This document shows, one piece after another, positions 7,631 through 58,691 of a stretch of DNA of 64,000 nucleotides (position 1 is the first letter of the stretch; every line of letters starts with the position of its first letter). The translations under genes and the position numbers were made by a program. The DNA is from an uncultured Gammaproteobacteria bacterium (lineage in GTDB: Bacteria > Patescibacteriota > Microgenomatia > Daviesbacterales > UBA10151). The notes below the pieces were generated by a model. The model saw only the letters and a program-made list of their open reading frames with translations. It had not been told where the DNA came from and searched no databases. The stretch is taken from positions 2,177 to 66,176 of the forward strand of contig CAZFYQ010000002.1 in NCBI GenBank assembly GCA_964523905.1, read 5' to 3'.

Positions 7631-7667
7631 AAATTATGCTCCCGTCAAAGCACAATATTATTGTGAG

Positions 7668-7806
7668 GTAAATGACGAGGGGCCGTCAAGTAGCAGTTTC
7701 ACACCCTCGTCATTCTGAGGGAGAAGGTCTAAATGACCTTCGAGTTAACCGAAGAATCTCTCACGAATGTGAGTGGAAAGTCTGGTATGATAATTACTCT
7801 CACGAT
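7668..7806. repeat. Palindromic dispersed repeat element, copy A (partial, MITE-like)
   Basis: Carries the gtcattctgag terminal core, an 11-bp inverted repeat aatgacgaggg/ccctcgtcatt, hairpins gaaggtc-taaat-gaccttc and ctcac-gaat-gtgag, and the block cgaag-aatctctc. These are shared with the elements at 58606 and 26352. Confidence 0.6.
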
Positions 7807-8719
7807 GAAAAAATTGTCTGCTTTTACCTTAATTTTCCTGATTGTCTTAGGTTTTGTATTTGTTAAAAATATTTCCGGAAATATTGATAAACCGCTAATT
7901 ACTCCCCTGATTGCTACGGAGCAGGTCTTAGGAATTAATCAGTGGCTGCCGGATCTGCAAACTGCCTCTAACTCTGCCGGACCGGAAATCACTGCCCAGT
8001 CAGCTTTTTTTATTGATTCTAAAACCGGGGAAGTTTTGTATGAAAAAAATCCACACCTTAGATTACCAATTGCCTCATTAGTTAAAGTAATGACGGTATT
8101 AGTGGCTTTGGAACATAAAAGAATTGATGATAGTTTTGTAGTTTCTCAGCATGATGCAGATATGGAGCCGGATAAAATGCAGTTAATTGCCGGGGAAACA
8201 CTAACTCTAAAAGAACTGCTTTACGGAGTTTTTTTAATTTCCGGCAATGACGCAGCAGAGACAATTGCAGAAGGAACTACCGGAAATCGCCAAGAATTCA
8301 TTCAACTGATGAATGATAAAGCTAAACAACTAGGTATGAAGGATACTTTTTATGCTAACCCCACAGGTTTGGATGAAGACAGCGGCAACTCCTATTCAAG
8401 TGCTTATGATTTGTCTTTACTAACCCGTTATTTAATCCGCAATTTTCCGGAAACTGTGGATATATCTTCAACTGAACACATTATTTTACCAATTACCGAG
8501 ACTCATCAAGATTATGATCTGTATTCCGGGATTAATTTATTAACCACATACCCGGGGGTGGTTGGTTTTAAAACAGGTTATACTCCGGAAGCTGGCTTAA
8601 CCCTGATTAACTTAACCCGCAAAAATGGGCATGAAGTAATTGGAGTAATCTTGGGATCATCAGATCGCCGCGATGAAGCTAGAGAGCTGTTGGATTATAG
8701 TTTTAAAAAATTGAATTAA
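7805..8719 (+). CDS. D-alanyl-D-alanine carboxypeptidase (serine-type, PBP5-like)
   Basis: SxxK (ASLVK), SGND and KTG motifs. The start was chosen at the MKKLSAF signal peptide because the ORF-track start at 7733 would lie inside the repeat element. Confidence 0.8.
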   Translation: MKKLSAFTLIFLIVLGFVFVKNISGNIDKPLITPLIATEQVLGINQWLPDLQTASNSAGPEITAQSAFFIDSKTGEVLYEKNPHLRLPIASLVKVMTVLVALEHKRIDDSFVVSQHDADMEPDKMQLIAGETLTLKELLYGVFLISGNDAAETIAEGTTGNRQEFIQLMNDKAKQLGMKDTFYANPTGLDEDSGNSYSSAYDLSLLTRYLIRNFPETVDISSTEHIILPITETHQDYDLYSGINLLTTYPGVVGFKTGYTPEAGLTLINLTRKNGHEVIGVILGSSDRRDEARELLDYSFKKLN

Positions 8720-25642: not shown

Positions 25643-26353
25643 GTGGGGATGTTTACTAACCAGAAAGTGTTAGCTTTAATTTTAATAGTTTTCCTAATTG
25701 GAGCAGCCGGTTATTTTACAGTTTCCAAGTTTAAAGCAGATGTGTCTGATGCCGGAGTGTCACCAACTCCCACTCCCCCTGCTCTAAGTTTTACCTTTAG
25801 CGCTAATTCCCAAACTCCGGCACCTGGCCAAACCGGACAAGCAGGTCAAACTCAACCTGCTCAATCACTGCCTTTGGAACATAACAAACATTTGGATAAA
25901 TTCCCCGGACTACTAGCCCCGGATGTGTTAGCCAATAAATCCGCCTTAATTCAAACTAAAAAGGGTAATATTTCTTTGCAGATTTATCCAGAGGCCACCA
26001 AAGCTGCTTCTAATTTTTTGCTGCTAGCTGCTAATGGATTTTATGATGGATTAACGTTTCATCGGGTGGAGGATTGGGTGGTACAGGGTGGGGACCCTGA
26101 TGGTACAGGACGCGGTGGGCCAGGATATCAGTTTGAAGATGAGCCGGTGACCAGATCATACACACAAGGGATTGTGGCCATGGCTAATGCCGGACCCAAT
26201 ACCAATGGCTCACAGTTTTTTATTTTGAAAAAAGATTATCCGCTGCCACCTAACTATACTATCTTTGGCAACGTGGTTTCCGGTATGGATGTGGTGTCTC
26301 AAATCGCCGTAGGTGATGTGATGCAAAAGGTGACAATACAAAACCTTAAATAG
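25643..26353 (+). CDS. ppiB: Peptidyl-prolyl cis-trans isomerase, cyclophilin type, membrane-anchored
   Basis: An FHRV...GGDP.GTG.GGPGY...ANAGPNTNGSQFFI cyclophilin core, with an N-terminal TM helix. Confidence 0.85.
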   Translation: MGMFTNQKVLALILIVFLIGAAGYFTVSKFKADVSDAGVSPTPTPPALSFTFSANSQTPAPGQTGQAGQTQPAQSLPLEHNKHLDKFPGLLAPDVLANKSALIQTKKGNISLQIYPEATKAASNFLLLAANGFYDGLTFHRVEDWVVQGGDPDGTGRGGPGYQFEDEPVTRSYTQGIVAMANAGPNTNGSQFFILKKDYPLPPNYTIFGNVVSGMDVVSQIAVGDVMQKVTIQNLK

Positions 26354-26379
26354 ATTCTTACGCTACGCTTCAGAATGAC
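26352..26379. repeat. Palindromic dispersed repeat, copy C (3' arm only: agattctt-acgctacgct-tcagaatgac)
   Basis: Near-identical to the 3' arm of the 58606-58691 element (agattctt-cgcttcgc-tcagaatgac). It starts at the ppiB stop codon. Confidence 0.6.
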
Positions 26380-26445: not shown

Positions 26446-26886
26446 GTGAAATGTCCTTTCTGTGCAAGCGATTTAAGCAAAGTAGTTGATAAAAGGTCAG
26501 TAACTGGACGGGGTGAAATCAGAAGACGAAGGCAGTGTCTTAAGTGTGATAAAAGATTTACCACGTATGAGTCTTTGGCTCAACTACAACTGGCGGTGCT
26601 AAAAAAAGACGGCACCAGACAGGCATTTGATGGGGAAAAGATTAGGAGAGGGTTAATTAGGGCTTTGGAAAAACGGCCGGGAATAGAAAAAGTGGGCACT
26701 ATTGTGGATCGGATTGAAGGTAGAATTAGGGCTAGAAGACTTAGTGAAATTGAGTCAGCCACTTTAGGAAAATGGGTGCTGTCAGAGCTGAAAAAATTGG
26801 ATGCGGTGGCATATCTTCGATATGTTAGTGTCTACCGATCTTTTGGAGACTTAAAAGACTTTAGTAAAGAATTAGAAACACTATGA
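26446..26886 (+). CDS. nrdR: Transcriptional repressor NrdR
   Basis: A zinc ribbon KCPFC...CLKC followed by an ATP-cone. GTG start chosen to give the canonical MKCPFC N-terminus; the ORF-track start is 26413. Confidence 0.85.
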   Translation: MKCPFCASDLSKVVDKRSVTGRGEIRRRRQCLKCDKRFTTYESLAQLQLAVLKKDGTRQAFDGEKIRRGLIRALEKRPGIEKVGTIVDRIEGRIRARRLSEIESATLGKWVLSELKKLDAVAYLRYVSVYRSFGDLKDFSKELETL

Positions 26887-29800
26887 AAACAAAATCAAAG
26901 AGTAAATCAATATCACAAATCGTTACAATGCCCAGGGTTAATGGACAAAGAAAAACTAATGGTCATAACGATGAAAGAACTTTTGAAACCAGGTTTACGC
27001 CCCGCTATAAAAAAATGCCAGCTTTGCCTCAGGGTTTACCAGAGCCATCATTTTCTGAATCTTCCAATAAAATTTTAATTGAAAGATATTTGTTAAAAGG
27101 CGGTAATTTGGAAGTGGTAGAAACCGTGGCTGAAAGGTTTTGGCATATAGCCTATGACATTGCCTCCGGTGATATGGATTTTGGTGCCTCTGAAAAAGAT
27201 GTCACAGAACTTGCCAAAGGGTTTTTCTCTGTGATGGTTAATCAACAATTTTTACCTAACTCCCCCACCATCATGAATGCTGGAAAGCAAAATGGTTTGC
27301 AATATTCCGCTTGTTTTGTGTTGCCGGTGGGGGATTCTTTGCCGGAGATTTTTGACTCTGTTAAATATGCTGCTTTAATTCATCAAACCGGTGGCGGAAC
27401 CGGTTTTGCATTTTCCAGGCTTCGCGCAGCCGGTTCTATTGTAAATACCACTGGTGGTGTGGCTTCCGGGCCAGTATCATTCCTGCGGGTGTTTAATGCT
27501 GCTACTGAATCTATTAAACAAGGTGGCACCAGAAGAGGAGCTAATATGGGAATTTTGCGGGTGGATCATCCGGATGTAATGGAATTTATCCGCTGTAAAG
27601 CAGAGCTGGATGATTTAAATAAACCAGTTTATGAAGGAGTGGCACCATTACTTGCCGATGACAGCGCCAGAAGCTATTTTAAGACGCTTTTGTTGGATAA
27701 ACAAATTGCCAACTTTAATATTTCCGTGGCCATTACTGATAAGTTCATGAAAGCTTTGCAAACTGATGGCGATTTTGATTTGATTGCTCCTCATGATGGC
27801 TCAGTAGTGGGACAGTTAAATGCTAAGGCAGTGTTTGATGAGATTATTGAACGGGCTTGGGCAACCGGAGACCCGGGATTGATTTTTATTGACCGCATTA
27901 ATAACTCCCCTGCCAACCCGGTACCATCTTTGGAAACCATTGAATCCACTAATCCTTGTGTTACTGGAGATACTTTAGTTGCAACAGATAATGGATGGCA
28001 ACGTGCAGATAGTATTAAAATAGGTGATAGAATCAGCACTGTATTAGGCAGTGGTGAAGTAGATCAGGTAGAAGTATATGAGGATCGCTCTGTTTTTAAA
28101 GTAAAATTTTCTGATGGTGCAGAAATAAGAGCAACGGCCGCCCACCAATTTCATGCTATTGTTCATGAGCAGAGAACCAAAAATTCAGCCAATAAACAAT
28201 TTTCCCCAATAAAACTCGAGGATTTAAAGGTAGGAGATATGGTGAGGATAGCACCTGCCATTATGCCTGATAATGCTGTTTCTGATCTACCTACGGGATG
28301 GACAGAAAGAGAATATGGTTTTTTTGTCGGAGTGCTTTTAGGGGATGGTTGTATTACTGAAAAAACCTTAACAAGAAATGTAGTAAAGGTAGCAGTAAAC
28401 ACTAATGAAAAGGAATGGACTGAAATCATTAAGAATGTTTTACACAAGGCGGGTTCAAAGGTAGTAAACCTTGATCGTAGCGCTGGTTTTTCTGCTAATT
28501 TAACAGTACAAAATGCCGGGGGTGCAGCAATGTTGGTTAGAAACTCTTTTTTGAAACCTGCCTATTCTTACGAGAAAAGTATACCTTTAGAATACCAGAA
28601 TACTAACAGACAGTTTTTATCAGGACTTTTAGATGGACTTTATTCAACAGACGGAAATGTAAATTTAACCAGTACACATCCTTTTTTAAGATTAAAAACT
28701 ACTAGTAAAAAACTAGCTCAAGATTTACGCAGAATTTTATTATCTTTTGGTATTCATGGAAGAATAGTTACTATTAAAAAGGTTGCTGATAGTCATATAG
28801 GAGATAGAATAATCACCGCGAAACATATTCAATATGAAGTGATAGTTTCTGGATCAAGCATGAAAACTTTTGCTCAACAAATTACTCTTTCTCATCCTGA
28901 TAAACAAAAAAGAATACAGCGGGCTCAGCTGACTTTTGCTTTAACGGGTAACACTTGGTTATCACAAATTACCTCCATTGAACCAGATGGTATAGAAAAA
29001 GTATACGATTTGCATGAACCAGTTTCAGATACCTGGTTAACAGAGGGTGTAGTTAGCCGTGGATGTGGCGAGCAACCATTGGCTCCTTGGGATGCATGTA
29101 ATTTGGGATCAATTAATTTGGGTAAATTTGTCTTGGCTGATGGATCAGATGTAGATTGGGAAGGATTAAAATCAGTCACTCACCAGGCAGTGCACTTTTT
29201 GGATAATGTAGTGCAAACCAATCCGTATACTTTAAAGCCAATTTATGATGAAGTTCACAACAACCGCCGAATTGGTTTAGGGGTAATGGGTTGGGCAGAT
29301 ATGCTGTTTTTACTGCAAATTCCCTATGATTCTGAGGAAGCTTTGGAACTAGGAGAAAAAGTGATGAAATTTATTAATGATGAAGGTCATATGGAATCTG
29401 AAGACCTAGCTAGCAAAAGAGGACCCTTCCCTAACTGGATAAACTCAATTTATGCCCAAAAAGGTCATAAATCCTTTAAAGCCAGACCAGATGGATCCTT
29501 TGCCTTTGAAGGTGGTCGGCCAATTAGAAATTCTACCGTCACTACCATTGCACCAACAGGGACAATTTCGATTATTGGTGATTGTTCATCGGGAATTGAG
29601 CCGGTCTTTGCTTTGGCTTATATTCACCGCGCTAAAAAAGCCGGGGATGAAATGCGATATTTAACTATTGCTAATAAAACCTTTGATCAAATTGCCAAAA
29701 GAGAAGGTTTTTGGTCACCGGATTTAGCTCAAAAAGTAATGGATAATGGATCTGTGTTTGGTTTGGATGATGTGCCTCAAAACTGGCAGAAAGTGTTTAC

Positions 29801-30641
29801 TACTGCCCCGCAAATTTCTCCGGATTATCATGTCAGGATGCAGGCCGCTTTTCAAAGATATACTGATAATGGAGTTTCCAAAACCATTAATTTGCCAAAC
29901 TGGGCCACCCGTGATGATGTTAGAAATGCTTACCTTTCTGCTTGGGATACTGGTTGTAATGGTATTACCATTTATAGAGATGGTAGTAAAACCACTCAGG
30001 TATTAAATGTTTCTTCTACTTTAAAACCAGCTCAAGTGGCTGCTGAGGAAGTGCCAGTCGCTGCCAGGCCAATGATTTTACGGGGTCGCACTTATAAAAT
30101 TACTACCCCGGTGGGAGAAGCATTTATTACTATTAATCGAGATGAAGGGGATCAGCCATTTGAAGTATTTATTACGGTTGGAAAGGGTGGCATGCACACT
30201 ATGGCTGATGCTGAGGCCATGGGAAGACTCGTATCTTTGTCTTTAAGACTTTCTCGCGCCGGAGGAGAAAGTACTGCTAAAGAAATTGCAGGGAAGATTG
30301 CTGAGCAGCTGCGGGGAATTGGTGGATCATCTCATGTTGGATTTGGTAAAAACAGGGTGATGAGTTTGGCCGATGCGATTGCCAAGGTTTTATCAGAGGA
30401 TATGGCGGTGGGTATAAATAATGAAGGTTTAGAGAATACTGAACCAATACCTCTAAATTTAACTATGAGTAATGGTGAGCAGAAGTTAGATACTGGAAAT
30501 TTGAAGTTGGAAGATCAAGCTTCTAGCCTCTCGCTTCCAGTTTCTAGCAATGCTGATCTTTGTCCAGAATGTGGCTCCGCTACTTTCGTAATGGAAGAGG
30601 GCTGTAAGAAATGTCATAGCTGTGGGTACAGTATGTGCTAA
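26883..30641 (+). CDS. nrdJ: Class II (adenosylcobalamin-dependent) ribonucleotide reductase NrdJ, interrupted by an in-frame intein
   Basis: The NPCGEQPL active-site motif is split as ..STNP | intein | CGEQPL.., with a C-terminal CxxC..CxxC zinc ribbon. The ATG overlaps the nrdR stop (ATGA). Confidence 0.9.
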   Translation: MKTKSKSKSISQIVTMPRVNGQRKTNGHNDERTFETRFTPRYKKMPALPQGLPEPSFSESSNKILIERYLLKGGNLEVVETVAERFWHIAYDIASGDMDFGASEKDVTELAKGFFSVMVNQQFLPNSPTIMNAGKQNGLQYSACFVLPVGDSLPEIFDSVKYAALIHQTGGGTGFAFSRLRAAGSIVNTTGGVASGPVSFLRVFNAATESIKQGGTRRGANMGILRVDHPDVMEFIRCKAELDDLNKPVYEGVAPLLADDSARSYFKTLLLDKQIANFNISVAITDKFMKALQTDGDFDLIAPHDGSVVGQLNAKAVFDEIIERAWATGDPGLIFIDRINNSPANPVPSLETIESTNPCVTGDTLVATDNGWQRADSIKIGDRISTVLGSGEVDQVEVYEDRSVFKVKFSDGAEIRATAAHQFHAIVHEQRTKNSANKQFSPIKLEDLKVGDMVRIAPAIMPDNAVSDLPTGWTEREYGFFVGVLLGDGCITEKTLTRNVVKVAVNTNEKEWTEIIKNVLHKAGSKVVNLDRSAGFSANLTVQNAGGAAMLVRNSFLKPAYSYEKSIPLEYQNTNRQFLSGLLDGLYSTDGNVNLTSTHPFLRLKTTSKKLAQDLRRILLSFGIHGRIVTIKKVADSHIGDRIITAKHIQYEVIVSGSSMKTFAQQITLSHPDKQKRIQRAQLTFALTGNTWLSQITSIEPDGIEKVYDLHEPVSDTWLTEGVVSRGCGEQPLAPWDACNLGSINLGKFVLADGSDVDWEGLKSVTHQAVHFLDNVVQTNPYTLKPIYDEVHNNRRIGLGVMGWADMLFLLQIPYDSEEALELGEKVMKFINDEGHMESEDLASKRGPFPNWINSIYAQKGHKSFKARPDGSFAFEGGRPIRNSTVTTIAPTGTISIIGDCSSGIEPVFALAYIHRAKKAGDEMRYLTIANKTFDQIAKREGFWSPDLAQKVMDNGSVFGLDDVPQNWQKVFTTAPQISPDYHVRMQAAFQRYTDNGVSKTINLPNWATRDDVRNAYLSAWDTGCNGITIYRDGSKTTQVLNVSSTLKPAQVAAEEVPVAARPMILRGRTYKITTPVGEAFITINRDEGDQPFEVFITVGKGGMHTMADAEAMGRLVSLSLRLSRAGGESTAKEIAGKIAEQLRGIGGSSHVGFGKNRVMSLADAIAKVLSEDMAVGINNEGLENTEPIPLNLTMSNGEQKLDTGNLKLEDQASSLSLPVSSNADLCPECGSATFVMEEGCKKCHSCGYSMC
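27957..29063 (+). mobile_element. Intein with LAGLIDADG homing-endonuclease domain inside nrdJ (369 aa)
   Basis: Block A CVTGDTLV, block B RATAAHQF, LAGLIDADG blocks YGFFVGVLLGDGCI and FLSGLLDGLYSTDGNV, and block F/G-like KVYDLHEPVSDTWLTEGVVSRG followed by the extein Cys. Confidence 0.85.
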
Positions 30642-58605: not shown

Positions 58606-58691
58606 GTCATCCTGAGGACAAAGTCCGAAGGATCTCTCGCGAATGCGAGACTCAAACAAGTTGAGAGATTCTTCGCTTCGCTCAGAATGAC
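58606..58691. repeat. Palindromic dispersed repeat element, copy B (complete, 86 bp, 11-bp terminal inverted repeats gtcatcctgag/ctcagaatgac)
   Basis: Foldable as an outer 11-bp stem plus an inner 10-bp stem (cgaaggatct/agattcttcg) enclosing two hairpins (ctcgc-gaat-gcgag and ctcaa-acaag-ttgag). Confidence 0.65.

What the first reader, a model, noticed from the sequence alone, without database searches (positions are those of the whole stretch)
7668..7806. Dispersed palindromic MITE-like repeat family (core gtcatyctgag ... ctcagaatgac), three copies in intergenic leaders
The complete 86-bp copy B (58606-58691) has 11-bp terminal inverted repeats and folds into an outer stem, an inner 10-bp stem and two small hairpins with GAAT/ACAAG loops. 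Copy A (7668-7806, in the leader between the L,D-transpeptidase and carboxypeptidase genes) shares the 5' core gtcattctgag, the cgaag-aatctctc block and a ctcac-gaat-gtgag hairpin. Copy C (26352-26379, nrdR leader) matches the 3' arm agattctt..cgct..tcagaatgac. All three lie in 5' leaders or divergent promoter regions, which suggests either a miniature transposable element or a structured cis-regulatory or small-RNA motif. I do not recognise it as any named element.
Basis: seen in the sequence. Interest (0 to 1): 0.6.

Follow-up and report, generated by a model that had tools for sequence, protein, structure and literature searches.

The report
Hairpin repeats of the Ssn nuclease
The three "MITE-like" copies are short DNA hairpin repeats of a family described in 2025 (Ssn-related motifs), which flank and are cut by a small single-strand-DNA nuclease; here they are gene-less remnants inserted between ordinary genes of a candidate-phylum bacterium.

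Summary
The window holds four copies of one hairpin unit at three sites: A (7709-7760, +), B (58606-58636, + and 58665-58691, -) and C (26351-26379, -, degenerate).

The unit is (T)GTC-[A NNNN]-GA-G[variable hairpin]C-GA-[NNNN T]-CTC. Its helix covaries strongly: Y/R pairing held in 286 of 296 units, and all 7 pairs changed on both sides.

It is not window-specific. It occurs across most bacterial phyla, CPR bacteria and phage contigs.

In related loci the same unit flanks, in inverted orientation, a 90-100 aa single-domain GIY-YIG gene. That is the SRM-ssn-SRM architecture of Chenal et al. 2025 (Ssn ssDNA nucleases; Neisseria NTS/dRS3).

Copy B keeps exactly the two non-coding ends of such an element with the gene deleted. 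Copy A is a solo left end. Copy C is a decayed solo unit.

Orthologous intergenic regions in relatives lack the elements, so there are empty sites at A and B.

No ssn gene lies in the window.

This subclass (tandem G·A stem, GCGNAGC mini-hairpin loop) is missed by the published SRM search string (0 of 641 units).

Verdict: a new member of a known kind, of moderate interest.

The parts
7709..7760 (+). SRM unit A: GTCATTCTGAG, a 30-nt inner hairpin (GAAGGTC-TAAAT-GACCTTC), then CGAAGAATCTC. It is the left-end type unit of an SRM-ssn-SRM element with the gene and right end missing.
   Evidence: The same unit plus hairpin lies directly upstream of ssn in L374, L375, L316 and L318. It is absent from the orthologous site in L372.
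7760..7773 (+). Left-end-associated hairpin CTCAC-GAAT-GTGAG.
   Evidence: The combination AAGRATCTCTCRCGAATGYGAG is found in more than 120 metagenome stretches, and R/Y always covary. It precedes the ssn start codon by about 12 nt in L374, L375, L316 and L318.
58606..58636 (+). SRM unit B-left: GTCATCCTGAG-GACAAAGTC-CGAAGGATCTC (ATCCT/AGGAT helix type).
58636..58649 (+). Left-end-associated hairpin CTCGC-GAAT-GCGAG. It differs from copy A by a compensatory A-T to G-C change.
58651..58665 (+). Right-end-associated hairpin CTCAA-ACAAG-TTGAG. In autonomous elements this hairpin lies between the ssn stop codon and the right unit.
   Evidence: L316: ctgaaacaagttca followed by GAGATTCTTCG...
58665..58691 (-). 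SRM unit B-right: the minimal 27-nt form GTCATTCTGA-GCGAAGC-GAAGAATCTC (ATTCT/AGAAT helix type, GCGAAGC mini-hairpin).
   Evidence: It forms a heterotypic doublet with B-left, as do 99 of 124 doublets elsewhere. The whole 86-nt element is missing from the orthologous intergenic region in L364, L366, L367 and L369.
26351..26379 (-). SRM unit C, degenerate: GTCATTCTGAaGCGTAGCGtAAGAATCTa. Its 3' end overlaps the TAG stop (26351-26353) of the PPIase-like ORF 25643-26353.

Best explanation
The three sites carry Ssn-related motif (SRM) repeats. These are REP-like hairpin units that serve as the cis sites of a small single-domain GIY-YIG nuclease, Ssn.

The full element is unit(+), the hairpin TCRCGAATGYGAG, an ssn gene of about 92 aa, a small hairpin, then an inverted unit(-).
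- Copy B is that element with the gene deleted, so it is non-autonomous and MITE-like.
- Copy A is a solo left end.
- Copy C is a decayed solo unit.

Proposed mechanism. When the GTCAT strand is single-stranded (replication, repair or DNA uptake), each unit folds into a hairpin. The hairpin has a 5-bp AT-capped helix, a tandem sheared G·A pair and an inner variable hairpin. Ssn, made elsewhere in the genome, binds the hairpin. It reads the GTC just 5' of it and the C just 3' of it, and nicks the ssDNA a few nucleotides upstream.

Shown here:
- the hairpin, by covariation;
- the physical linkage to ssn;
- copy-paste spread within genomes;
- insertion polymorphism at sites A and B.

Taken from the literature for other SRM subclasses: ssDNA-only binding and cleavage, and modulation of natural transformation.

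Inferred:
- that this subclass is cut by its cognate Ssn;
- that Ssn drives the spread of the repeats;
- that the window's genome encodes an Ssn outside these 64 kb.
For: Structure
- Y6/R22 pairing is C-G in 148 units, T-A in 138 and mismatched in 10.
- More than ten Watson-Crick helix variants occur: TTCT/AGAA, TCCT/AGGA, TTCC/GGAA, TGCT/AGCA, CCCT/AGGG and others.
- On 77 distinct 27-nt units, 91.5% of cells are paired and all 7 pairs change on both sides. The covariation score is 0.402 against 0.186 for shuffles (0 of 500 reach it), and slid controls score 0.155 or less.

Linkage to ssn
- 13 GIY-YIG ORFs of 92-102 aa lie in the motif-fetched loci (PF01541 confirmed on five tested).
- 7 of the 13 have a strict-pattern sense unit within 120 nt upstream (binomial P about 2e-10).
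- 3 more have variant units, and inverted units follow the stop codon.
- Loci fetched by protein alone show the same architecture: Daviesbacteria L374 and L375 and viral contig L380.
- The other protein-fetched ssn loci carry other SRM subclasses.
- The protein of L213, which is flanked by NTS-type hairpins, is 56% identical to the L345 protein, which is flanked by our type.

Mobility
- Within-genome copies share lineage-specific inner hairpins, and the similarity stops exactly at T|GTCAT and ATCTC| (L007, L114, L063, L091).
- The orthologous intergenic spacer is 60-75 nt in four relatives and 148 nt in the window, which equals 62 nt plus the 86-nt element.
- Site A is empty in L372, holds a doublet in L373 and is decayed in L371.
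- One ssn element is inserted antisense into the S10 operon.

Literature
- PMC11893778 defines NTS as CGTCATTCCCGCGMAVGCGGGAATCYRG.
- It shows that the GTC upstream of the palindrome matters for cleavage and that the C after it is the most important base for binding.
- It shows ssDNA-only activity and the NTS-ssnA-NTS architecture.
- Close homologues of the ssn proteins are named as from Candidatus Daviesbacteria, the window's lineage.
Against: - No ssn gene lies in the 64-kb window, and the rest of the genome could not be read.
- The published degenerate SRM search string matches none of the window copies and 0 of 641 units of this type. Membership therefore rests on architecture and on the shared GTC-palindrome-C frame.
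- CDD family cd10448, which defines Ssn, could not be assigned with the tools available.
- No Ssn of this subclass has been tested biochemically.
- Nearest-neighbour DNA folding gives single units only -2 to -5 kcal/mol, no better than shuffles.
- The same folding favours the long inter-unit fold for B (-20 kcal/mol). The evidence for the unit hairpin is therefore evolutionary, not thermodynamic.
- How copies spread is unknown, and I found no target-site duplication.
Confidence: 0.82

Rival explanations
1. A structured cis-regulatory RNA or small RNA motif that acts in the 5' leaders of the adjacent genes.
For: - The units lie in leaders or intergenic regions.
- There is strong helix covariation.
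- In phage contigs, units often sit 7-20 nt upstream of an RBS and ATG in the sense orientation.
- The RNA fold of B is better than shuffles.
Against: - There is no Rfam match, even at E <= 10.
- Units occur in both orientations relative to neighbouring genes: 64 same/same against 58 opposite/opposite.
- Neighbouring genes are unrelated to each other.
- The orthologous leaders of the same genes in relatives lack the element.
- The minimal loop GCGNAGC is the classic DNA mini-hairpin (PMC13037366).
- SsnA does not bind RNA.
Confidence: 0.05
2. A classical MITE: a deletion derivative of a DDE-transposase insertion sequence, moved by cut-and-paste through its terminal inverted repeats.
For: - B has 11-bp terminal inverted repeats and TG...CA-like termini (TGTCAT...ATGACA).
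- Insertion polymorphism is seen.
- Convergent doublets are common (124).
Against: - No target-site duplication is visible at B.
- Most copies are single units with a sharp 3' end at CTC and no second repeat arm.
- The helix sequence varies with compensation, which argues for structure recognition and against duplex sequence recognition.
- The gene found between inverted units is a GIY-YIG nuclease.
- No transposase family recurs near the units.
Confidence: 0.03
3. REP/BIME-type repeats served by a RAYT (HUH Y1 transposase of the IS200/IS605 superfamily).
For: - The anatomy is very similar: a conserved 5' tetranucleotide, an imperfect hairpin, GCGNAGC-type loops as in enterobacterial REPs, and inverted heterotypic doublets like Y/Z REPs in BIMEs.
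- The location bias is also similar: 44 units in convergent against 24 in divergent intergenic regions.
Against: - The 5' motif is (T)GTCA, not GTAG.
- No recurrent family of any kind (so no shared transposase) emerged when all ORFs of the first 240 fetched loci were clustered; Pfam was run only on the largest, phage, clusters and on a few copy-dense loci and showed no Y1 transposase there. This test has low power.
- The gene actually bracketed by the units is GIY-YIG.
Confidence: 0.03
4. Chance resemblance among three loosely similar intergenic sequences.
For: The 11-mer count in the window is only marginally above shuffles.
Against: - Several hundred units with conserved unspecified positions and covariation exist in public data.
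- The 22-nt A/B-specific extension alone recurs in more than 120 metagenome stretches.
Confidence: 0.01

Closest known systems
Ssn-related motifs (SRM) / Neisseria Transformation Sequence (NTS, a subset of dRS3) with SsnA GIY-YIG ssDNA nucleases (Chenal et al., Nat Commun 2025, PMC11893778)
   Same: - The frame is identical: pyrimidine-GTC, then a palindrome that begins AT and ends AT, then C.
- The repeat is 20-50 nt and forms a hairpin.
- It is oriented.
- It is mostly intergenic.
- It is multi-copy.
- Inverted copies flank a single-domain GIY-YIG gene of about 94 aa.
- The distribution across phyla is wide.
   Different: - The stem is ATYCT-GA-G...C-GA-AGRAT, with a tandem G·A mismatch and often a GCGNAGC mini-hairpin, instead of the G+C-rich ATTCCCGCG stem.
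- The published search string HGTCWYN(0-2)YYVSBRHN(0-5)WNVSBRGN(0-2)RNCYNB matches 0 of 641 units.
- The hosts include CPR bacteria and phage contigs.
- No biochemistry exists for this subclass.
- The window itself has no ssn gene.
REP/BIME repeats and RAYT transposases (Nunvar et al. 2010, PMC2817692; REPINs)
   Same: - A conserved 5' tetranucleotide plus an imperfect hairpin.
- GCGNAGC-like loops.
- Inverted doublets of two unit types.
- An extragenic location.
- A single protein gene flanked by the repeats.
- A presumed ssDNA hairpin substrate.
   Different: - The protein is a GIY-YIG nuclease, not an HUH Y1 transposase.
- The 5' motif is GTCA, not GTAG.
- The same unit sequence is shared across phyla rather than being species-specific.
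MITEs and the palindrome-associated elements (PATEs) of IS200/IS605
   Same: - Copy B is a short, non-coding internal-deletion derivative that keeps both ends of a gene-carrying element.
- It shows insertion polymorphism between relatives.
   Different: - No target-site duplication.
- No DDE or HUH transposase.
- Single units, not only end pairs, are the commonest form.
d(GCGNAGC) extraordinarily stable DNA mini-hairpin (Hirao; review PMC13037366)
   Same: The loop of the minimal 27-nt unit is GCGNAGC in 104 of the 27-nt units tabulated (N = C 44, A 34, T 16, G 10).
   Different: The mini-hairpin is only the tip of a larger conserved structure. Many units replace it with longer variable hairpins.

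Membership tests
SRM / Ssn system (Chenal et al. 2025) | Conserved GTC immediately 5' of the palindrome. In Neisseria it is needed for cleavage and it gives the repeat its orientation. | tested here: met
   All four window units begin (C/T)GTCAT. GTC was fixed in my search patterns, but the -1 pyrimidine (T 78%, C 18%) was not specified.
SRM / Ssn system (Chenal et al. 2025) | A hairpin-forming inverted repeat of 20-50 nt. | tested here: met
   Covariation on 77 distinct units: 91.5% of cells paired, 7 of 7 pairs with changes on both sides, 0 of 500 shuffles reaching the score. Y/R pairing held in 286 of 296 units. Unit lengths run from 27 to about 53 nt.
SRM / Ssn system (Chenal et al. 2025) | Conserved C immediately 3' of the palindrome, the most important base for SsnA binding. 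| tested here: met
   ...AGRAT-C-TC is present in A, B-left, B-right and C. This position was fixed by my patterns, so conservation outside the window is by construction.
SRM / Ssn system (Chenal et al. 2025) | Match to the published degenerate SRM search sequence HGTCWYN(0-2)YYVSBRHN(0-5)WNVSBRGN(0-2)RNCYNB. | tested here: not met
   There is no match for any window copy, although the NTS positive control matches. 0 of 641 units of this type match, while other SRM subclasses next to ssn do match. This string is an operational search tool, not the biological definition of the family.
SRM / Ssn system (Chenal et al. 2025) | Inverted repeats flank a single-domain GIY-YIG gene of about 94 aa (NTS-ssnA-NTS). 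| tested here: met
   Met in related loci: L287, L316, L318, L345, L218, L233, L339. Also met in protein-fetched L374, L375 and L380. PF01541 covers the whole protein. Not met inside the window, which has no ssn ORF.
SRM / Ssn system (Chenal et al. 2025) | [quoted passage not shown] | not testable with these tools
   No CDD library is available. Indirect evidence: 56% identity to a protein flanked by NTS-type hairpins, and only weak similarity (E 1e-5) to the UPF0213/YhbQ-type structures 1zg2 and 1ywl.
SRM / Ssn system (Chenal et al. 2025) | Sequence-specific binding and cleavage of ssDNA only, on one strand, a few nt upstream of the repeat. | not testable with these tools
   This needs purified protein and oligonucleotides. 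It has been shown only for four NTS-type homologues.
Classical MITE (DDE transposon derivative) | Terminal inverted repeats plus a target-site duplication. | tested here: not met
   B has 11-bp inverted termini, but no duplication is visible at the filled versus empty sites. A and C have a single arm only.
REP / RAYT | A 5' GTAG tetranucleotide and association with a Y1 (HUH) transposase gene. | tested here: not met
   The 5' motif is GTCA. Clustering all ORFs of the first 240 fetched loci gave no recurrent family apart from phage structural genes, and Pfam, run only on the largest clusters and a few copy-dense loci, showed no Y1 transposase. That search had low power. The bracketed gene is GIY-YIG.
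Rfam structured RNA families | A match to a curated covariance model. | tested here: not met
   Only a tRNA reaches the gathering threshold in the window. There is nothing credible at E <= 10 around A or B.

The most novel reading that the evidence does not exclude
SRM-ssn-SRM units may be genuine, currently active transposable elements whose only protein is a ~92-aa GIY-YIG single-strand nuclease. That would be a transposition mode distinct from the DDE, HUH, serine and tyrosine classes.

The CTGAG...CGAAG subclass would then be a pan-bacterial and phage-borne lineage that leaves MITE-like doublets (window copy B) and solo ends (A, C).

Several observations here go beyond the published hypothesis of an IS-like, possibly domesticated element:
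- the heterotypic pairing of units in doublets;
- insertion into hairpin loops;
- insertion into the S10 operon;
- clean filled and empty sites.
Probability: 0.35. Interest if true: 0.7.

Novelty: new member of a known kind. Interest (0 to 1): 0.35.

Why it matters
For this window, the finding removes a puzzle. The three "unnamed" palindromes are remnants of a recently described nuclease-plus-repeat system. They are not regulatory RNAs. They also explain a mis-called gene start: the public 328-aa carboxypeptidase call begins inside copy A.

More broadly, four points matter.
- The published SRM search string misses this subclass, yet both row-capped scans (viral contigs and species-representative genomes) filled their 120-locus limits with it; totals and its rank among SRM subclasses were not measured.
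- This subclass reaches CPR bacteria and phages.
- Filled and empty orthologous sites, together with gene-less doublets, support the idea that these elements move.
- The unit combines two unusually stable DNA motifs, a tandem sheared G·A pair and the GCGNAGC mini-hairpin. That is relevant to anyone who wants new Ssn enzymes with new specificities as ssDNA tools.

Tried and rejected
- Rfam at the gathering threshold and at E <= 10 gave only a tRNA and noise.
- Literature searches for the literal DNA strings and for peptides that spurious translations of the repeat would give found nothing relevant.
- A hammerhead ribozyme was considered because of GUC, CUGA and GA[stem]GAA. I rejected it: CUGAnGA is absent from most units, there is no stem I, and no Rfam hammerhead model hits.
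- A K-turn or L7Ae-type site was rejected because there is no 3-nt bulge.
- An intrinsic terminator was rejected because there is no T-run; the 3' flank has no conservation.
- A CRISPR array was rejected because the tandem array in L034/L109 has identical spacers.
- I looked for a RAYT or transposase by clustering all ORFs of the first 240 fetched loci. Only phage structural genes recur.
- I looked for empty sites among related phage contigs. The orthologous intergenic region is too diverged to give clean junctions.
- BLAST of the 30-nt consensus against phage and plasmid records found unannotated copies in Planktothrix, Calothrix, Oscillatoria, Granulicella, Hymenobacter and Phocaeicola plasmids, but no annotation to lean on.
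- Nearest-neighbour folding of single units is not better than shuffles, so I did not use energy as evidence.
Only 64 kb of the genome is available, and the collection scans stop at 120 rows.

Full report
**1. What is in the window**

A pattern search and several relaxed scans find exactly four copies of one unit and no other fragments.
- A: 7709-7760 (+), GTCATTCTGAG, a 30-nt inner hairpin, then CGAAGAATCTC. It is followed by the hairpin CTCAC-GAAT-GTGAG (7760-7773).
- B-left: 58606-58636 (+), followed by CTCGC-GAAT-GCGAG and then CTCAA-ACAAG-TTGAG.
- B-right: 58665-58691 (-). This is the minimal 27-nt form GTCATTCTGAGCGAAGCGAAGAATCTC.
- C: 26351-26379 (-), a degenerate unit whose end supplies the TAG stop of the upstream PPIase-like ORF.

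A and B lie between divergent genes. C lies between co-directional genes. Rfam has nothing at any of these sites.

**2. The real unit and its structure**

I scanned public collections with GTCATYCTGAGN{3,30}AAGRATCTC. It also hit the limit in species-representative genomes (120 loci). The genome hits cover:
- Chloroflexota, Acidobacteriota, Nitrospirota and Omnitrophota;
- Ignavibacteria, Bacteroidota, Verrucomicrobiota and Planctomycetota;
- Clostridia, and alpha-, gamma- and delta-proteobacteria;
- Cyanobacteria and Eggerthellaceae;
- the CPR groups Saccharibacteria and Komeilibacteria.

By my own arithmetic, a pattern this specific would give roughly a hundred chance hits in 596 Gb, so counts alone prove nothing. 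The unspecified features do.
- In 296 non-redundant units, the free Y and R positions pair as C-G (148) or T-A (138), with only 10 mismatches.
- The base before GTC is T in 78% of units and C in 18%.
- CG precedes AAGRAT in 283 of 296 units.
- Conservation stops dead at both ends.

By-catch in the same loci shows many other Watson-Crick helix variants: TTCC/GGAA, TGCT/AGCA, CCCT/AGGG, TTTC/GAAA, CTCT/AGAG, TGTC/GACA and others.

A formal count on 77 distinct 27-nt units gives these results:
- 91.5% of cells are paired;
- all seven pairs change on both sides;
- the covariation score is 0.402, against 0.186 for shuffles (0 of 500 reach it);
- slid controls score 0.155 or less.

The unit is therefore (T)GTC-[A NNNN]-GA-G[variable hairpin]C-GA-[NNNN T]-CTC. 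That is a 5-bp helix, a tandem G·A, and an inner hairpin.
- In the minimal form, the inner hairpin is GCGNAGC. It was seen in 104 of the 27-nt units tabulated.
- GCGNAGC is the known extraordinarily stable DNA mini-hairpin (PMC13037366).

Nearest-neighbour energies for single units are unimpressive. The case for the hairpin is evolutionary.

**3. It behaves like a repeat that copies itself**

- About two thirds of units are intergenic by a crude ORF call.
- They occur in both orientations relative to neighbouring genes.
- They are commoner between convergent genes than between divergent ones (44 against 24).
- Copies within one contig share lineage-specific inner hairpins, while their flanks are unrelated. 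The similarity ends exactly at T|GTCAT and ATCTC| (L007, L114, L063, L091).
- Units pair up far more often convergently (124) than divergently (9) or in tandem (14).
- 99 of the 124 convergent doublets combine two different helix types, typically ATCCT with ATTCT. Window copy B does the same.
- That pairing puts mismatches into any long inter-unit fold. It also recalls the Y/Z REP pairs of BIMEs.

**4. The partner gene**

Most of those hits are B-like composites: a unit, then TCGCGAATGCGAG, then a small hairpin with an AACAAG or ACATTCG loop, then an inverted unit.

In several hits, a small ORF sits where the centre of the composite would be.
- An HMM search of all six-frame segments found 13 such ORFs (92-102 aa), and none in the window.
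- Pfam, run on five of them, calls each a single GIY-YIG domain.
- Seven have a strict-pattern sense unit within 120 nt upstream (P about 2e-10).
- Three more have variant units.
- Inverted units follow the stop codon.

Loci fetched by protein similarity alone confirm the architecture without motif ascertainment.
- Two Candidatus Daviesbacteria loci, L374 and L375, show it. In L375 the element sits antisense between rpsJ and rplC.
- Viral contig L380 shows it too.
- The other protein-fetched loci carry other hairpin subclasses of the same GTC-palindrome-C frame.

**5. What is known**

A literature search on GIY-YIG plus repeats found Chenal et al. 2025 (PMC11893778). Their main points are these.
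- The Neisseria NTS (CGTCATTCCCGCGMAVGCGGGAATCYRG, a subset of dRS3) and related "Ssn-related motifs" flank ssnA.
- ssnA encodes a 94-aa single-domain GIY-YIG protein (cd10448).
- SsnA binds the hairpin only as ssDNA, and only on one strand. It cuts a few nt upstream.
- Cleavage depends mainly on the three bases 5' of the palindrome.
- Binding depends most on the C just 3' of the palindrome.
- In N. meningitidis the system lowers transformation by NTS-containing DNA.
- The authors note the IS-like NTS-ssnA-NTS architecture and the REP/RAYT analogy.

Our unit has the same frame: GTC, a palindrome running AT...AT, then C. It has the same gene architecture. The protein of L213, flanked by NTS-type hairpins, is 56% identical to one flanked by our type. 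Similarity to the UPF0213/YhbQ structures is only weak.

The published degenerate search string, however, matches none of the window copies and 0 of 641 units of this type. It does match NTS and several other subclasses.

**6. Reading the window copies**

- Copy B contains exactly the non-coding left end (unit plus TCGCGAATGCGAG) and right end (small ACAAG-loop hairpin plus inverted unit) that bracket ssn in L316, L287, L318, L374 and L375. The gene is gone.
- Copy A is the left end alone.
- Copy C is a decayed single unit.

The window comes from a Daviesbacteria-like CPR genome (source names). Ssn homologues 70-78% identical to the query are named from Daviesbacteria.

Orthologous loci show that the elements are insertions.
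- The divergent glycosyltransferase-like / F420-ligase-like spacer is 60-75 nt in four relatives (70-80% protein identity). It is 148 nt in the window.
- Alignment A1 shows a clean 86-nt block between ...GCTACTATT and ATAAAGATG, with no visible duplication.
- At site A, one relative is empty (L372), one has a doublet (L373) and one has a decayed copy (L371).

**7. Mechanism, with what is shown and what is inferred**

Shown here:
- the hairpin structure, by covariation;
- linkage to ssn;
- within-genome proliferation;
- filled and empty sites;
- gene-less derivatives.

Shown by others for other subclasses: ssDNA-only binding and upstream nicking by Ssn, and an effect on transformation.

Inferred:
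- that an Ssn encoded outside these 64 kb recognises A, B and perhaps C when the GTCAT strand is single-stranded;
- that Ssn is responsible for the spread of the repeats.

By analogy, the predicted nick positions are just 5' of 7709 (+), just 5' of 58606 (+), just above 58691 (-) and just above 26379 (-).

**8. Rivals**

- A cis-regulatory RNA is unlikely. Units occur in both orientations, they are absent from orthologous leaders, there is no Rfam family, and the loop is DNA-type.
- A DDE-type MITE is unlikely. There is no duplication, single-arm copies are the commonest form, the helix covaries, and the partner gene is a GIY-YIG nuclease.
- REP/RAYT is the nearest analogue in anatomy. It fails on the 5' motif and on the partner gene.

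**9. Verdict**

They are Ssn-related motif repeats of a subclass that the published search pattern does not capture, in a CPR host. That makes them a new member of a known kind. The open and more interesting question is whether SRM-ssn-SRM units truly transpose using only a ~92-aa GIY-YIG nuclease.

Noticed in passing
window 26883-30641 (+): The 1252-aa ribonucleotide-reductase-like ORF downstream of nrdR contains an intein-like insert (…NPCVTGDTLV … VVSRGCGEQ…), judging from the translation alone.
   Followed up: no
window 7733-8719 (+): The public gene call for the D-Ala-D-Ala carboxypeptidase (P0121, 328 aa) starts inside SRM copy A. Relatives are 303-306 aa and start at the ATG equivalent to 7805. 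The call is therefore probably a spurious N-terminal extension through the repeat.
   Followed up: partly
window 7636-7700: The leader GCTCCCGTCAAAGCACAAT..ATTGTGAGGTAAATGAC..CGTCAAGTAGCAGTTT is conserved in three relatives, including the one with an empty site (alignment A2). It is probably the promoter or operator of the divergent L,D-transpeptidase and carboxypeptidase genes.
   Followed up: partly
L375/L376/L377 1240-1830 (Candidatus Daviesbacteria RIFCSPLOWO2_02_FULL_36_7): A complete unit-ssn-unit element sits antisense between rpsJ and rplC, inside the otherwise universally conserved S10 ribosomal-protein operon.
   Followed up: partly
L034 7496-7705 and L109 9726-9935 (viral contigs): Four head-to-tail copies (57-nt period) of a 39-nt unit plus an identical 18-nt spacer. 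This is a tandem-array form of the repeat that I saw nowhere else.
   Followed up: no
L006, L039, L107; L256, L280, L319, L327, L264, L283 (and others): - Nested copies: a GTCATTGYGAG...CGAAGCAATCTC unit carries a GTCATTCTGAG unit in its loop.
- B-like composites lie inside a larger palindrome (ACGAATTTCGCAG.../...TGCGAAACTCGT or CAGGACTTACGCA.../...TGCGTAACTCCTG).

This could mean a preference for inserting into hairpin loops.
   Followed up: no
all fetched loci: In convergent doublets the two units are of different helix types in 99 of 124 cases, typically ATCCT/AGGAT with ATTCT/AGAAT. Unit frequencies would predict fewer. This disfavours a perfect long palindrome and is so far unexplained.
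   Followed up: partly
L046, L092, L107, L038, L047, L113, L055 (related tailed-phage contigs): The same intergenic slot, upstream of a conserved structural-module gene beginning M(T/S/G)KSKIE, holds different things in different phages. Some have a single unit, some a decayed unit, and some an unrelated AATCTC-rich palindrome.
   Followed up: partly
L121 (Logan contig SRR9179560_1583510), position 1-37: A short-read assembly of the same organism breaks 37 nt upstream of the F420-ligase-like gene, within copy B. Many ssn homologues also sit on contigs of about 1 kb. Both fit a multi-copy repeat that breaks assemblies.
   Followed up: no
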